The translations under genes were made by a program, and so were the position numbers. A stretch of DNA of 64,000 bases from an uncultured Roseivirga sp. (GTDB lineage Bacteria; Bacteroidota; Bacteroidia; Cytophagales; Cyclobacteriaceae): assembly GCA_943846625.1 (NCBI GenBank), contig OX044362.1, positions 1,596,030-1,660,029 of the forward strand, read 5' to 3'. Positions 55,630 to 59,852 of the stretch are shown in pieces. The first letter of the stretch is position 1. The number at the start of each line of letters is the position of its first letter. Below the pieces are notes generated by a model. That model was not told the origin of the DNA, ran no database searches, and was given only the letters and a program-made list of their open reading frames with translations.

Positions 55630-56427
55630 CAACTCCTTTACCACTTTAGCAGCTACCATTCCGGTTACACCATTGATATCACGGTCAGGGTTATATTCAA
55701 CCACATCGCAGCCAACTATTTTTGCATCTAGTTTCTGTATCATGTTGATTGCTTCTCGCGTAGTCAGTCCGCCCGGTTCGTGATGCGACACACCAGGTGC
55801 AAAGGCCGGATCAAGGACATCCATATCAAAGGTAATATAGACTGGGCCATCGAATTTCATATTAATCTCTGAAGACCAGTCTTTCATCTCGATGACATTT
55901 ACACCAAAGCGATCCGCTTGTTCTTTCTGATGAGATGTCATGGTGCGAATTCCAATTTGTGTCAAGTGTTTCGCCAAGCCATTCTCCATGATGCGCGCAA
56001 AAGGGCAGGCATGTGAATGCTTATTGCCGTCTAGTTCGTCATAGAGGTCGCCATGTGCATCAAACTGAATGATGTGGAGGTTAGGGTACTTCTCAGCCAA
56101 AGCCTGCATGATAGGGTAGGCCATAGAGTGATCGCCACCTAAAGAAAACGGGAGGGCATCCTGCGCAAGTATCTCTCTAATGGGCGATCCAATGTCAAAG
56201 TAATCTTTCGGGGATGCATTGCCGCACCATTTGACGCGTGGATGTTCATTAAGGTCAGTCAGGTTCTCGGTAAAGAAATTAGCAGAGTCAGACTCCAGTG
56301 ATTCAATAATCAATTCTGGAGCCTTCGCTGGTCCTTGTAGAAAGGAAGAATTTTCGTCAAAAGGAATCCCAATCAGGGCGATGTCATTTGCGGCTAGCGT
56401 GTCAATTGTACTCCTTTTGATGCCCAT
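55612..56427 (-). CDS. speB: Agmatinase (ureohydrolase family)
   Basis: GGDHS, FDAHGD, HACPF, FDMDVLDPAFAPG, EYNP. Confidence 0.85.
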   Translation of the reverse strand: MGIKRSTIDTLAANDIALIGIPFDENSSFLQGPAKAPELIIESLESDSANFFTENLTDLNEHPRVKWCGNASPKDYFDIGSPIREILAQDALPFSLGGDHSMAYPIMQALAEKYPNLHIIQFDAHGDLYDELDGNKHSHACPFARIMENGLAKHLTQIGIRTMTSHQKEQADRFGVNVIEMKDWSSEINMKFDGPVYITFDMDVLDPAFAPGVSHHEPGGLTTREAINMIQKLDAKIVGCDVVEYNPDRDINGVTGMVAAKVVKELLAKLL

Positions 56428-58094
56428 TACTTCTGCCAGTTATCTCTAAGCGTTACCGTCCTGTTGAAAATCAAGTTTCCTTCTGTCGACTCTTTGTCTA
56501 CTATAAAGTAGCCTTGTCTTTCGAACTGGAAGAAATCACCCGGCTTAGCTTCTGCCAATGATGGCTCAAGTAAAACACCTTTATTGATCTCCAATGAATT
56601 CGGATTCAAGTGATTCGTCAACTCGTCATCAATCGTGCTGAGGTTTTCAGTAGTAAAGAGTCTGTCATACATTCGGATATCGGCTTTCACTGCATGGTCT
56701 GCAGAAACCCAACCCAATGTGCCTTTTACTTTCTTTCCGCTTGTGTCATGTCCACTGCGTGTATCTGGATCGTACTCGCAATACAGTTCAGTGATGTTAC
56801 CATCTGCATCCTTTTCAAAGCCAGTGCACTTCACAATGTATCCGTACTTCAAACGTACTTCACGATCTGGCCCTAAACGGTACCATTTCTTCGGAGGAGG
56901 AGGATTCTCTAAAAAGTCGCCTTGCTCTATATAAATTTCTCTCGTCAAAGGCATTTCACGACTTCCTGCTGCTTCGTCACCTGGGTTATTCACTGCAGGC
57001 ATCATTTCTGTTTTATCGGCAGGCCAGTTGGTAATCGTCACTTTCAGTGGATCAAGAATACCGAAAACGCGATTGGCTTTCTTATTCAAGTCCTCGCGGA
57101 TACTATGCTCAAGTAATGCAATGTCTGTAATGCCATCTCTTCTGGCTACGCCTACTTTGTGCGCAAAATTCTTAATCGATTCTGGCGTATAGCCTCTTCT
57201 TCTAAAACCAGAGATGGTAGGCATACGCGGATCGTCCCAGCCATTTACATGACCGTCTTCTACCAATTGTAAAAGCTTACGCTTACTGACAATGGTATAG
57301 CCCAAGTTTAAACGAGCAAACTCAGTCTGTTTTGAAGGAAAAATGTCGAGTGCATTGATCATCCAATCATACAAAGGCTTGTGGTCTCTAAATTCGAGTG
57401 TACACAAGCTATAGGTAACATTTTCTATAGAGTCTGACTGTCCGTGGGCAAAGTCATAATTAGGATAGATGCACCATTTGTCACCCGTTCTATGGTGATC
57501 GACTTTTTTGATTCTGTAGATAATCGGATCTCTCATGTGCATATTAGGAGAGTCCATGTCAATTTTCACCCTCAGTACACGGCTACCTTCTTCGCAAGCA
57601 CCACTGCGCATGGCTTCGAAGCGGGTTAGATTTTCCTCAACTGAAAGGTCTCTATAAGGACTTTTAATCCCTGGGATGGTGGGATTGGTCTTGCCTGCGC
57701 TAATTTCTTCAGCACTTTGGTCATCGACATACGCTTTCCCGTCTTCGATTAACTTGATGGCATAAGTGTATAGTTGATCGAAATAGTCAGAGGTGAAGAG
57801 GGGTTTGTCGCCATAGTCATAGCCTAGCCATTTGATGTCCTCGATAATCGCGTTCACGTACTCCATACTTTCCTTTGCAGGATTAGTGTCGTCAAAACGC
57901 AGATTGCACTTGCCATTATATTTTTCGGCTAACTCAAAGTTCAGCACAATGGATTTAGCGTGACCGATATGCAAGTAACCGTTGGGTTCTGGTGGGAAGC
58001 GTGTCTGGACAAAAGAGTTTTTACCTGATTTGAGGTCTTCTTCTATCATTCGCTCAATAAAGTTGAGCGATTCTTTGTTTTCGTTTCCCACCAT
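56427..58094 (-). CDS. glnS: Glutamine--tRNA ligase
   Basis: TRFPPEPNGYLHIGH, RFDDTNP, SLCTLEF, VSKRKL, FQFERQGYF. Confidence 0.97.
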   Translation of the reverse strand: MVGNENKESLNFIERMIEEDLKSGKNSFVQTRFPPEPNGYLHIGHAKSIVLNFELAEKYNGKCNLRFDDTNPAKESMEYVNAIIEDIKWLGYDYGDKPLFTSDYFDQLYTYAIKLIEDGKAYVDDQSAEEISAGKTNPTIPGIKSPYRDLSVEENLTRFEAMRSGACEEGSRVLRVKIDMDSPNMHMRDPIIYRIKKVDHHRTGDKWCIYPNYDFAHGQSDSIENVTYSLCTLEFRDHKPLYDWMINALDIFPSKQTEFARLNLGYTIVSKRKLLQLVEDGHVNGWDDPRMPTISGFRRRGYTPESIKNFAHKVGVARRDGITDIALLEHSIREDLNKKANRVFGILDPLKVTITNWPADKTEMMPAVNNPGDEAAGSREMPLTREIYIEQGDFLENPPPPKKWYRLGPDREVRLKYGYIVKCTGFEKDADGNITELYCEYDPDTRSGHDTSGKKVKGTLGWVSADHAVKADIRMYDRLFTTENLSTIDDELTNHLNPNSLEINKGVLLEPSLAEAKPGDFFQFERQGYFIVDKESTEGNLIFNRTVTLRDNWQK

Positions 58095-58241
58095 TTTCTG
58101 TCTAACTGAATAGAGTGCAATTTTAGTGAAAACCGTTGAATTCAGCTTGTTAAATAGCGTTTATTTCAGTCAATGAAAATTGACAATCACAAAGAATCAT
58201 GGAAGTAGTAGTGGACTCTTTTAGAGTGGGTTAGGTATGAT

Positions 58242-58309
58242 TGTGTATAAACCTGTGGATAACCCAGTGGATAAGTATGTGAATAACTAAGTGGGAAACT
58301 TGTTGAAAA
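58242..58309. promoter_or_regulatory. Array of co-oriented DnaA boxes at 12-bp period
   Basis: TGTGTATAA 58242, TGTGGATAA 58254, AGTGGATAA 58266, TGTGAATAA 58278, then degenerate AGTGGGAAA 58290 and TGTTGAAAA 58301 (consensus TGTGNATAA). Confidence 0.85.
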
Positions 58310-58325
58310 CTAGAGGGTTACAATG

Positions 58326-58356
58326 TTTGCATCTAAAGATATGTAAAGTATCTTAG
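58326..58356 (+). promoter_or_regulatory. Bacteroidota housekeeping promoter for the candidate large ncRNA
   Basis: TTTG (58326-29)-N19-TATCTTAG (58349-56); the spacing matches the TTTG-N19-21-TAnnTTTG consensus. Confidence 0.7.
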
Positions 58357-58361
58357 GTATA

Positions 58362-59074
58362 CCAAGTGAGGGATAAAGAACAGAAGTCTAGCTTCAGTCT
58401 CTCTTCGGGAGAAGCCCGAAAAAGTGTAGTGAAAGGGTTGACATGTAAATGTTAATCTGAGACAGTCAGAGTGATACTGTTAGTATTTATCCAGATCGTA
58501 AGTGACGGATTGAATATCGGAAATTTCTTCAGGGAAATTGCCAGGTGTATGTGATCACTACTTTGAAAGGGAGTAATCATAAGACGTTCTAAAAATCTTT
58601 CTATGAAAGGTGATTAGGCATCATTTTAACAGTTGACTTTAATGAAAACTGAGCAATCAGGAATAGTTCTAGTCAGGAAAGTACTTCGGTACACACCTCA
58701 TCACCGTCAACGATTACTGGAAACAGTGATTGACACGCGCTCGCAAGAGCATGTGGAACATGTGGAGATTACTTTCGGGTAGTTTTGACAAAGAACGTTG
58801 ACAGATCTGCAGAGATATATAAGACTGCAAAAGCTTCGCATAACCGATTGGTGCTGAGCACCAAACTATAGGTGAAGCCGTAAGAAGACAGCGTTTAGAC
58901 TTGATTGCTTGGGCCTTCAAGTTTGAACAAAGTTCTGAACAGTAACTTGGCATCTTTAAATAGTTCATACTATTTAAAGATGAGCAGGGGGTGAGCAATC
59001 ACCCCCTGTCTTTGTTATTTGGGGGTATTTGAAAAAATACTGAAAAAGACCACTGGGGAGTGGTCTTTTTTTTT
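58362..59074 (+). ncRNA. Candidate large (~710 nt) highly structured non-coding RNA, class not recognised
   Basis: Promoter before and terminator after; about 10 UUCG/GNRA-capped hairpins; nested long-range helices 58362-67/58945-50, 58377-81/58932-36, 58384-90/58896-902, 58391-96/58873-78. Confidence 0.8.
59043..59074 (+). terminator. Intrinsic terminator closing the candidate ncRNA
   Basis: AAAAAGACCACT-gggg-AGTGGTCTTTTT-TTTT. Confidence 0.9.
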
Positions 59075-59122
59075 GCTCACTTCTAAACTTTTTTTTAAAA
59101 TATCCGTTGTCTTACTAGTTTT

Positions 59123-59143
59123 AATAATAGTAATGCTATTATT
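59123..59143. promoter_or_regulatory. Probable TetR operator
   Basis: AATAATAG-taatg-CTATTATT perfect 8-bp inverted repeat about 30 nt upstream of the tetR start. Confidence 0.55.
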
Positions 59144-59174
59144 TAGAATAGTTAATTATCACACTTCACTAGAC

Positions 59175-59852
59175 ATGGCGCTACTTAGGCTTGAAATGAA
59201 TGCTAAACTTTTTTTGCGTGATCCGCAGGAAACAGATTTAGGAAGAAAGATTATTGATCAATCCATTCGGATGATTGATGAGTTTGGGTTGGAGGCCTTC
59301 ACCTTTAAGAAACTGTCCATTGCTATAGATTCTACAGAAGCATCTATCTATCGCTACTTTGAAAATAAACATAAGTTGCTAGTCTATCTTATCGCTTGGT
59401 ATTGGAACTGGTTGGAGTATAGAATTGACTTCGAAACACATAACGTAAAATCCCCAGAAGATAGGCTAGCCATTGCATTGAGGTTAATTACCGAGCAAAA
59501 GTCTTATGACCTATCTTTCCCTTCGGTTGATGAGTCTGCTTTGCAAAGAATTATCACCAATGAATCAGATAAGACTTATCTTACAAAACAAGTGGATAGC
59601 GATAATCGAGAAGGTCTTTTTAGGGGTTTTAAAACTATCTGTAAGCGCATTGCTGATATGATCAAGGAAATCAATCCATCTTACCAATATGCGCATGCCT
59701 TGGTAAGCACTGCATTGCAATCTGCCCATCAGCAAGTGTTTTTTGCAGAGCACTTACCTTCTTTGACTGAGCATGATCCTGGGCGAGGGGATATCTATCA
59801 GCAGAATTACGTGTTTCTTTTAGAACTCATTCAAAAAGCTATTAGGGAATAA
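59175..59852 (+). CDS. TetR/AcrR family transcriptional regulator
   Basis: RDPQETDLGRKII, FTFKKLS...TEASIYRYFENKHKLL; the ORF-track start at 59019 crosses the terminator, so 59175 is preferred. Confidence 0.92.
   Translation: MALLRLEMNAKLFLRDPQETDLGRKIIDQSIRMIDEFGLEAFTFKKLSIAIDSTEASIYRYFENKHKLLVYLIAWYWNWLEYRIDFETHNVKSPEDRLAIALRLITEQKSYDLSFPSVDESALQRIITNESDKTYLTKQVDSDNREGLFRGFKTICKRIADMIKEINPSYQYAHALVSTALQSAHQQVFFAEHLPSLTEHDPGRGDIYQQNYVFLLELIQKAIRE

What the first reader, a model, noticed from the sequence alone, without database searches (positions are those of the whole stretch)
58195..58309. Phased DnaA-box array with DnaA-trio-like motif: candidate oriC or DnaA-titration site
Seen: three perfect and one 1-mismatch TGTGNATAA boxes at exact 12-bp spacing, followed by two degenerate boxes in the same orientation. 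On the strand reading TTATNCACA, about 28 nt downstream, lies CAC-TAC-TAC-TTC-CAT (58213-58199). This resembles the TAC-TAT-TAC-TTC DnaA-trio element of the B. subtilis unwinding region, though the spacer here is longer. About 80% of coding sequence from 11 to 58 kb is on the minus strand (rough tally by eye) and everything to the right is plus, i.e. mostly transcribed away from this site; the first 10.7 kb is plus. No dnaA gene is in the window, and I could not see a clear GC-skew switch by eye.
Basis: partly seen in the sequence, partly recalled or inferred. Interest (0 to 1): 0.65.

Follow-up and report, generated by a model that had tools for sequence, protein, structure and literature searches.

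The report
DnaA-box array gating a structured RNA
The row of DnaA-binding motifs is real and conserved, but it lies far from the replication origin; it sits on the predicted promoter of a large, uncatalogued structured RNA gene found in at least 25 genera of marine Cytophagales, which suggests this RNA is tied to the replication initiator.

Summary
Four DnaA boxes (TGTGNATAA on the + strand) lie at 58242, 58254, 58266 and 58278, exactly 12 bp apart. Two degenerate boxes follow at 58290 and 58301. This is the only phased chain of such boxes in the 3.04-Mb genome (Roseivirga, Bacteroidota).

It is not oriC. GC skew turns at about 470 kb and about 2045 kb, and the array lies at 1654 kb. A conventional oriC candidate sits at 458.6-458.9 kb, 2.5 kb from mnmG/gidA. 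In five Roseivirga genomes the array is 30-44% of the circle from that site. The trio-like motif is 28 bp from box 1 (the published limit is 16 bp) and occurs in only 2 of 25 relatives.

The array ends on a predicted Bacteroidetes-type promoter (TTG, 19 nt, AAnnTTTG), and box 6 overlaps the -33 TTG. That promoter would drive a roughly 740-nt RNA with strong covariation and no Rfam match. A covariance model that excludes the boxes finds this RNA in 25 of 132 genera of the family. Upstream of 22 hits outside Roseivirga there are on average 3.0 same-strand boxes, against 0.027 in control windows, and in the same register.

Best reading (inferred, about 0.6): a DnaA-responsive control module for the RNA promoter.

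The parts
58242..58250 (+). DnaA box 1. Reads TGTGTATAA on the + strand (TTATACACA on the - strand). About -92 to -84 from the predicted TSS.
   Evidence: In 25 Roseivirga genomes positions 1-4, 6, 8 and 9 are invariant. Position 5 varies freely (G13 T5 C5 A2), which matches the N of TTATNCACA.
58254..58262 (+). DnaA box 2, TGTGGATAA, a perfect consensus box.
   Evidence: The 3-bp spacer CCC that follows is conserved.
58266..58274 (+). DnaA box 3, AGTGGATAA (1 mismatch).
   Evidence: Position 1 varies between genomes (T17 A5 G3); the core GTGGATAA is kept.
58278..58286 (+). DnaA box 4, TGTGAATAA. It is the weakest of the four across the genus.
   Evidence: It has 0-3 mismatches to TGTGNATAA in 25 genomes.
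58290..58298 (+). Position 5 of the array, AGTGGGAAA. Candidate low-affinity site.
   Evidence: It keeps the 12-bp register. Other genera carry good boxes or TGTGGGAAA at this offset of -59/-60 from the RNA core.
58301..58309 (+). Position 6 of the array, TGTTGAAAA. It overlaps the predicted -33 TTG at 58300-58302.
   Evidence: Other genera carry good boxes at offset -48/-49, for example TGTGTATAA, TGTGCATAA and TGTGCAAAA.
58300..58329 (+). Predicted Bacteroidetes-type sigma-A promoter: TTG (58300-58302), a 19-nt spacer, then AATGTTTG (58322-58329). The predicted TSS is near 58334.
   Evidence: Sequence. The same TTG-N19-AAnnTTTG layout appears in other genera. The -7 box TAnnTTTG occupies -12 to -5 in flavobacteria (PMC9723704). 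This is a prediction only; no transcript data were available.
58334..59075 (+). Structured non-coding RNA gene of about 740 nt. Both ends are predicted.
   Evidence: Conserved in 24 of 24 genus genomes. RNAalifold predicts 207 pairs, 55 of them with compensatory changes, including a closing helix between 58345-58360 and about 59014-59031. In the 5' domain 95.5% of cells are paired, against 35-63% in slid controls. There is no Rfam match.
59043..59075 (+). Intrinsic terminator: hairpin GACCACTGGGGAGTGGTC followed by a run of 9 T.
58199..58213 (-). Trio-like CACTACTACTTCCAT. Judged a chance match and not part of the element.
   Evidence: It lies 28 bp from box 1, against a 16-bp maximum in the published search rule. 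It is present in 2 of 25 genomes.
56427..58094 (-). glnS (glutaminyl-tRNA synthetase), the divergent neighbour.
   Evidence: Pfam. It is the left neighbour in several Roseivirga species but not in another genus.
59175..59852 (+). TetR-family regulator, followed by ABC/HlyD/TolC efflux genes. Right neighbour; the start is corrected from 59019.

Best explanation
The array is a DnaA-responsive control region for the promoter of a large structured non-coding RNA. It is not a replication origin.

Six sites lie head-to-tail with an 11-12 bp period, running from about -92 to -25 relative to the predicted transcription start. Boxes 1-3 are strong and distal. Boxes 4-6 are weak and proximal, and the last one overlaps the -33 TTG of a Bacteroidetes-type promoter.

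The inferred mechanism is as follows. DnaA anchors on the strong distal boxes. Depending on its amount and nucleotide state, it spreads cooperatively along the phased weak sites to the promoter. This would make synthesis of the RNA depend on the initiator's state. The overlap with the -33 element favours repression, but the sign of the effect is unknown. Because the array binds several DnaA molecules, it would also titrate some DnaA.

Shown here: the motifs, their phasing, their conservation, their fixed register ahead of the RNA across genera, and their position far from the origin. Inferred: that DnaA is the binding protein, where transcription starts, and that the array has a regulatory effect.
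For: 1. Motif. Boxes 1-3 keep G2 T3 A6 A8 A9 in 25 genomes, while position 5 and the 3-bp spacers vary. This is the pattern of TTATNCACA.
2. Spacing. The sites are 2-3 bp apart. This is the spacing at which E. coli DnaA binds box pairs in vivo (PMC11317965), and the maximum allowed between tandem origin boxes (PMC8287927).
3. The organism uses canonical boxes. DnaA domain IV has the ARQVAM...GGRDHSTVIHA signature. An inverted pair of perfect boxes sits at -150/-134 from dnaA. The same motif fills the oriC candidate at the skew minimum.
4. Uniqueness. It is the only phased chain in the genome.
5. Linkage to the RNA. Models R1 and R2, built without the boxes or the promoter, find the RNA in 47 of 401 genomes and 25 of 132 genera. 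Upstream of 22 hits outside Roseivirga there are on average 3.0 same-strand boxes per 100 nt, against 0.027 in 370 control windows, none of which has 2 or more. In a 170-nt upstream zone orientation is 66 to 2. Offsets cluster at -107, -95, -83, -71, -59 and -49, the same register as in G000.
6. Neighbours change but the array stays with the RNA. Two tandem RNA paralogues in G437 each carry their own array.
7. A TTG-N19-AAnnTTTG promoter-like layout lies between the array and the RNA in several genera.
8. Not an origin.
Against: - No binding data and no transcript data exist here.
- The -7 element starts with A instead of T in most genomes.
- Another protein with a similar direct-repeat specificity cannot be excluded.
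- DnaA domain IV is identical across the genera examined, so no covariation test between protein and site was possible.
- The 22 loci outside Roseivirga include close pairs from the same genus, so there are fewer than 22 independent lineages.
- Hits of 30-43 bits come from roughly calibrated E-values. They all share the TACCTTAG...CAAGTGAGAGATAAAAG core.
- In the Roseivirga set, sites 5 and 6 are invariant partly by construction, because those genomes were retrieved with an exact 20-mer that covers these sites.
Confidence: 0.6

Rival explanations
1. The site is a DnaA titration or DnaA-state control locus, in the manner of E. coli datA or DARS or the Bacillus subtilis DnaA-box clusters. Its main job would be to sequester, inactivate or reactivate DnaA at a set time in the replication cycle. 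The RNA gene would be a passenger, or its transcription would modulate occupancy of the array. This is compatible with the best explanation and could hold together with it.
For: It is the densest and only phased box array in the genome. It lies well away from the origin, 30-44% of the circle in five genomes. In 5 of 5 genomes it is oriented so that the replication fork meets the boxes first.
Against: The array keeps an exact register with the RNA core and the promoter-like element across genera, and it is duplicated together with the RNA. A pure titration site has no need for either. Its distance from oriC is not tightly conserved (30-44%; 8.5% from mnmG in genus g216). Four to six sites would titrate only a small amount of DnaA.
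Confidence: 0.15
2. The repeats are bound by a different, lineage-specific DNA-binding protein, for example a response regulator or another factor that recognises direct repeats. Its site would only resemble a DnaA box.
For: No binding data exist. Four or more direct repeats just upstream of a promoter is a common activator layout. The conserved block GTGGGAAACTTGTTGAAAAC is more strictly kept than the boxes.
Against: The match to the DnaA consensus is position by position, including the free position 5. Variants seen include TGTGGACAA, TGTGGAAAA and TGTTGATAA; from my own knowledge these resemble accepted DnaA-box variants. The 2-3 bp spacing is DnaA's own. The same motif marks dnaA and the oriC candidate in this genome. 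Response regulators of the OmpR/PhoB type usually use a 10-11 bp period (my own knowledge).
Confidence: 0.17
3. The site is the chromosomal origin, or a secondary, transcription-primed origin.
For: It is a strong same-orientation box array with divergent local gene orientation and a trio-like motif.
Against: - Skew extremes are at about 470 kb and about 2045 kb, and the site is at 1654 kb. There is no local V in the skew.
- The same holds in G024.
- An oriC candidate with conserved boxes in both orientations and an AT-rich flank lies at 458.6-458.9 kb, 2.5 kb from mnmG/gidA.
- The trio-like motif is 28 bp from box 1, above the 16-bp limit, and is present in 2 of 25 genomes. GC content of the flank ranges from 0.23 to 0.49, so there is no conserved AT-rich unwinding element.
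- One flank of the array is a covarying RNA gene.
- The genome shows no gene-strand bias on a large scale.
Confidence: 0.02

Closest known systems
DnaA-regulated promoters with 'double DnaA boxes' (E. coli dnaA, nrdAB, purH, mioC; Stringer, Fitzgerald & Wade 2024, PMC11317965)
   Same: The 9-mers match the consensus, share one orientation, are spaced 2-3 bp apart, and lie next to a promoter. DnaA would act as a transcription factor.
   Different: There are six phased positions here instead of a pair. Their affinity appears to fall towards the promoter. The target is a large structured non-coding RNA, not a protein-coding gene. The layout is conserved across at least 25 genera of one Cytophagales family. 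Neither binding nor regulation has been shown.
Arrays of phased low-affinity DnaA sites within E. coli oriC (a strong R box anchoring sites 2 bp apart; from my own knowledge, also cited)
   Same: A strong anchor box is followed by weaker sites at a fixed 11-12 bp period in one orientation. This is the geometry that supports cooperative DnaA-ATP oligomers.
   Different: The array is not at an origin. It has no adjacent unwinding element or DnaA-trios. It ends on a promoter.
E. coli datA and DARS1/2, and the Bacillus subtilis DnaA-box clusters
   Same: These are non-origin chromosomal clusters of DnaA boxes that could bind several DnaA molecules.
   Different: No IHF or Fis sites were tested here. 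This site has fewer boxes than the B. subtilis clusters. It is strictly coupled to an RNA gene. It lies in the terminus-proximal half of the replichore, not near oriC.
Basal unwinding system of bacterial origins (DnaA boxes, a spacer of 16 bp or less, then DnaA-trios; PMC8287927)
   Same: Tandem DnaA boxes are separated by 3 bp.
   Different: The trio-like motif is 28 bp away and not conserved. There is no AT-rich element, and the location is wrong.

Membership tests
Chromosomal replication origin (oriC) | Lies at the minimum of cumulative GC skew, where the leading strand switches | tested here: not met
   The skew minimum is at about 470 kb and the maximum at about 2045 kb; the site is at 1654 kb. 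G024 shows the same picture from sampled skew plus the position of mnmG.
Chromosomal replication origin (oriC) | Cluster of DnaA boxes | tested here: met
   Four boxes with at most 1 mismatch within 45 bp.
Chromosomal replication origin (oriC) | Adjacent unwinding module: 3 or more DnaA-trios within 0-16 bp of a box, and/or a conserved AT-rich element | tested here: not met
The motif is present in 2 of 25 genomes, and flank GC ranges from 0.23 to 0.49.
Chromosomal replication origin (oriC) | No better candidate elsewhere, and typical neighbours (dnaA, dnaN, gidA) | tested here: not met
   A candidate at 458,577-458,945 has conserved boxes in both orientations and lies 2.5 kb from mnmG/gidA. 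The neighbours of the array are glnS and tetR.
DnaA-regulated promoter | Two or more consensus-like DnaA boxes 2-3 bp apart, next to or overlapping a promoter | tested here: met
   The period is 12 bp (3-bp spacers) in 25 genomes and 11-12 bp in other genera. The last site overlaps the predicted -33 element. The promoter itself is only predicted.
DnaA-regulated promoter | DnaA binds the site and changes transcription | not testable with these tools
   This needs EMSA or ChIP plus reporter or RNA measurements.
datA-, DARS- or DBC-type DnaA control locus | Non-origin cluster of several DnaA boxes | tested here: met
datA-, DARS- or DBC-type DnaA control locus | Accessory IHF or Fis sites, and an effect on the DnaA-ATP/ADP balance or on initiation timing | not testable with these tools
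   There is no validated IHF or Fis motif for Bacteroidota, and the function needs genetics.
datA-, DARS- or DBC-type DnaA control locus | Conserved chromosomal position relative to oriC | tested here: inconclusive
   The distance is 39, 37, 30, 30 and 44% of the circle in five Roseivirga genomes. It is always in the terminus-proximal half but is not tightly fixed.

The most novel reading that the evidence does not exclude
The array and the RNA form one replication-coupled device. A DnaA-ATP oligomer on six phased sites would gate synthesis of a large structured RNA, and the RNA would then act on replication, the cell cycle or growth-state physiology. Earlier unchecked notes from this scan report DnaA-box arrays ahead of unrelated novel RNAs in Patescibacteria, Alphaproteobacteria, Chloroflexota and Actinobacteria. 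If those notes hold, this would be one case of a widespread and undescribed class: DnaA-gated structured RNAs.
Probability: 0.2. Interest if true: 0.85.

Novelty: new variant of a known kind. Interest (0 to 1): 0.62.

Why it matters
DnaA is known to act as a transcription factor for a small set of protein-coding genes. I found no report of a six-site phased DnaA-box array wired to the promoter of a large structured RNA and kept in register across 25 or more genera (three literature searches).

If DnaA does bind here, the array gives a direct experimental handle on two questions. The first is how Bacteroidota, whose replication control is almost unstudied, read out the state of DnaA away from the origin. 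The second is what this uncatalogued RNA does.

The work also corrects a tempting misannotation. The strongest DnaA-box cluster in this genome is not the origin, so origin-prediction tools that weight box density could mis-call it.

Tried and rejected
- Rfam, at gathering thresholds and in permissive E-value mode, found no credible family for the downstream RNA. Only terminator-like fragments matched.
- The sigma-70 promoter scan is uninformative for Bacteroidota. The 'terminator' it called at 58984-59009 is an internal helix of the RNA.
- Gene-strand bias as an origin marker: the genome has none at the 100-kb scale.
- The order-wide search with model R1 (301 genomes) gave only hits within the genus plus one false positive inside a lysine-rich ORF, L042. 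The retrained model R2, searched within the family, was needed to find the other genera.
- Covariation between box variants (for example TGTTGATAA in genus g248) and DnaA domain IV or dnaA-promoter boxes: domain IV is identical in all genera checked, and dnaA-upstream boxes are not conserved outside G000. No test was possible.
- The idea that the left flank varies within Roseivirga was wrong. glnS is the usual left neighbour, although the intervening DNA does not align. Only other genera have different neighbours.
- A CRP/FNR-type site (TGTGA-N6-TCACA) was considered and rejected, because every repeat is direct and none is inverted.

Full report
**What is in the sequence**

The + strand reads TGTGTATAA (58242), TGTGGATAA (58254), AGTGGATAA (58266) and TGTGAATAA (58278), exactly 12 bp apart. 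AGTGGGAAA (58290) and TGTTGAAAA (58301) follow. All three exact TGTGNATAA matches in the 64-kb window lie in this stretch.

The window is positions 1,596,030-1,660,029 of a single 3,037,609-bp contig. Across that genome this is the densest cluster of boxes with at most 1 mismatch. It is also the only chain of 3 or more same-strand boxes spaced 10-13 bp apart.

- 81% of coding sequence between 11 and 58.1 kb is on the minus strand.
- There is no dnaA in the window.
- There is no skew switch in the window.

**It is not the origin**

Cumulative GC skew has its minimum at about 470 kb and its maximum at about 2045 kb. The array, at 1,654,271, lies on the rising arm.

At the skew minimum there is an intergenic region, 458,577-458,945, with about seven DnaA boxes in both orientations and an AT-rich flank. 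It is 2.5 kb from mnmG/gidA. Its boxes are conserved in three other Roseivirga genomes.

A second genome, G024, gives the same picture. Skew sampled in twenty 20-kb windows is positive from 0 to 1.93 Mb and negative from 2.12 to 3.28 Mb. Its mnmG lies at 74 kb and its array at 1.217 Mb.

Taking the mnmG-linked site as oriC, the array is 39, 37, 30, 30 and 44% of the circle away in G000, G001, G013, G024 and G016.

Gene-strand bias is absent at the 100-kb scale, so the local divergent orientation carries no weight.

The trio-like motif does not support an origin either. It is 28 bp from box 1, while the published search rule for the basal unwinding system allows at most 16 bp, with 13 bp the commonest (PMC8287927). 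CTACTACTT occurs in only 2 of 25 Roseivirga genomes, and the flank is not consistently AT-rich.

**What the array belongs to**

Record titles identify the organism as Roseivirga (Bacteroidota, Cytophagales).

DNA conservation begins abruptly at 58239 and runs to about 59030 in all 24 genus genomes searched. It was absent from 16 other families of the order at BLAST sensitivity.

An eight-species alignment shows helices with compensatory changes. RNAalifold predicts 207 pairs, and 55 of them have double-sided changes. A long-range closing helix joins 58345-58360 to about 59014-59031.

In the 5' domain 95.5% of cells are paired and 12 of 24 pairs have double-sided changes. Controls with the partner slid by 1-3 columns give 35-63% paired. 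That alignment was fitted to the model, so it leans towards the structure.

A hairpin followed by nine T at 59043-59075 is the likely terminator. Rfam 15 has no match.

The array therefore heads an uncatalogued structured RNA gene of about 740 nt.

**Promoter geometry (predicted)**

Between the array and the RNA lies CTTG, a 19-nt spacer, then AATGTTTG (58322-58329). Most relatives have AAAGTTTG, and other genera have AAAATTTG with the same 19-nt spacer.

In flavobacteria the sigma-A -7 box TAnnTTTG occupies -12 to -5 (PMC9723704). That places the transcription start near 58334.

On this numbering the sites cover:
- box 1: -92 to -84
- box 2: -80 to -72
- box 3: -68 to -60
- box 4: -56 to -48
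- site 5: -44 to -36
- site 6: -33 to -25, overlapping the -33 TTG at 58300-58302

**Are these DnaA boxes?**

In 25 distinct Roseivirga genomes the 12-bp register never shifts. In boxes 1-3 the bases G2, T3, A6, A8 and A9 are invariant, while position 5 and most spacer bases vary. That is the pattern of TTATNCACA.

Observed variants include TGTGGACAA (three times in one genome) and TGTGGAAAA; from my own knowledge these resemble accepted DnaA-box variants.

The genome has one dnaA gene. Its domain IV carries the DNA-binding signature ARQVAM...GGRDHSTVIHA, which aligns with the B. subtilis and E. coli structures. The dnaA gene itself is preceded by an inverted pair of perfect boxes.

In E. coli, DnaA binds in vivo mainly to pairs of boxes 2 or 3 bp apart, and one extra base pair abolishes binding (PMC11317965). 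The spacing here is 3 bp, and 2-3 bp in other genera. DnaA is therefore the most economical candidate for the binding protein. This remains an inference.

**Independent test of the link to the RNA**

I built covariance models from the RNA's 5' domain only, leaving out the boxes and the promoter. Model R2 found the RNA in 47 of 401 genomes of the GTDB family and in 25 of 132 genera. This is a lower bound, because the stricter filters were in use.

All 22 inspected hits outside Roseivirga begin with the same TACCTTAG...CAAGTGAGAGATAAAAG core. Upstream of them:
- The zone from -130 to -30 holds on average 3.0 same-strand boxes with at most 1 mismatch.
- Control windows of 100 nt from the same loci hold 0.027 on average. 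None of the 370 control windows has 2 or more.
- 19 of the 22 loci have 2 or more boxes.
- In a 170-nt upstream zone, orientation is 66 to 2.
- Offsets cluster at -107, -95, -83, -71, -59 and -49. This is exactly the register of the six G000 sites relative to 58349.

Where Roseivirga has degenerate sites 5 and 6, other genera have good boxes or the recurring weak variant TGTGGGAAA abutting the TTG.

The neighbours differ between genera. Roseivirga has glnS and tetR; another genus has an unannotated 327-aa ORF and an unrelated gene. One genome carries two tandem RNA paralogues, each with its own array. The array therefore travels with the RNA gene.

**Mechanism proposed**

Strong distal boxes would anchor DnaA. 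Phased weak proximal sites would then be filled cooperatively, as happens in the low-affinity arrays of E. coli oriC (my own knowledge). Occupancy would reach the -33 element and so set the output of the RNA promoter.

Repression is the more natural outcome of that overlap, but activation is not excluded. The array would incidentally titrate some DnaA.

In 5 of 5 Roseivirga genomes the RNA gene is co-directional with replication, so the fork meets the boxes first.

**Limits**

- E-values from the short calibration are rough.
- Some loci outside Roseivirga belong to the same genus.
- In the Roseivirga set, sites 5 and 6 are invariant partly because those genomes were retrieved with an exact 20-mer that covers these sites.
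Its two families may simply reflect NCBI labels such as Roseivirgaceae and Cyclobacteriaceae.

**Verdict**

The oriC reading is rejected, with about 0.02 left for it. The best reading is a DnaA-responsive upstream control module for a family-wide structured RNA (about 0.6). A titration role (about 0.15) and a different binding protein (about 0.17) are the main rivals.

This is a new variant of a known kind, the DnaA-regulated promoter or DnaA-box cluster. It is notable for its six-site phased layout and its non-coding target.

Noticed in passing
outside the window: G000 genome 458,577-458,945 (L014:6578-6946): Likely true oriC. It has about seven DnaA boxes in both orientations, including an invariant tandem TGTGGATATGTGGAAA next to an AT-rich stretch. 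It sits at the GC-skew minimum between a TPR gene and a Big_5-domain gene, 2.5 kb from mnmG/gidA and 460 kb from dnaA.
   Followed up: partly
outside the window: L001:949-973 (G000 genome about 920,483-920,507): An inverted pair of perfect DnaA boxes (TTATCCACA and TGTGGATAA, 7 bp apart) lies 150-134 bp upstream of dnaA. This is probably autoregulation. It was not seen upstream of dnaA in six other genera of the family.
   Followed up: partly
window 59019-59852: The mechanical ORF for the TetR regulator starts too early (TTG at 59019) and runs across the RNA's terminator. Comparison with relatives puts the real start at ATG 59175 (226 aa).
   Followed up: yes
window 58984-59009: The GC-rich hairpin that scores as an intrinsic terminator on both strands is an internal helix of the RNA with compensatory changes. 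The invariant sequence after it (59014-59031) pairs with the RNA's 5' end.
   Followed up: partly
L083 (G437:C54:7057-10179): Another genus of the family carries two copies of the shorter (about 290-nt) RNA, 835 bp apart. Each has its own array of TGTTGATAA-type boxes. Two hits about 0.8 kb and 2 kb apart in G468 and G663 may be similar pairs.
   Followed up: partly
L020:1673-1720: In one Roseivirga MAG, boxes 1-3 all read TGTGGACAA. This is a concerted T-to-C change at box position 7 in three adjacent sites.
   Followed up: no
window 11043-58094: About 47 kb of mostly minus-strand genes lie on a replichore whose fork moves rightward, so they are head-on to replication. The genome as a whole shows almost no gene-strand bias.
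   Followed up: partly
five Roseivirga genomes (G000, G001, G013, G016, G024): The RNA gene is co-directional with replication in 5 of 5 genomes. It always lies in the terminus-proximal half of its replichore, 30-44% of the circle from the mnmG-linked oriC.
   Followed up: partly
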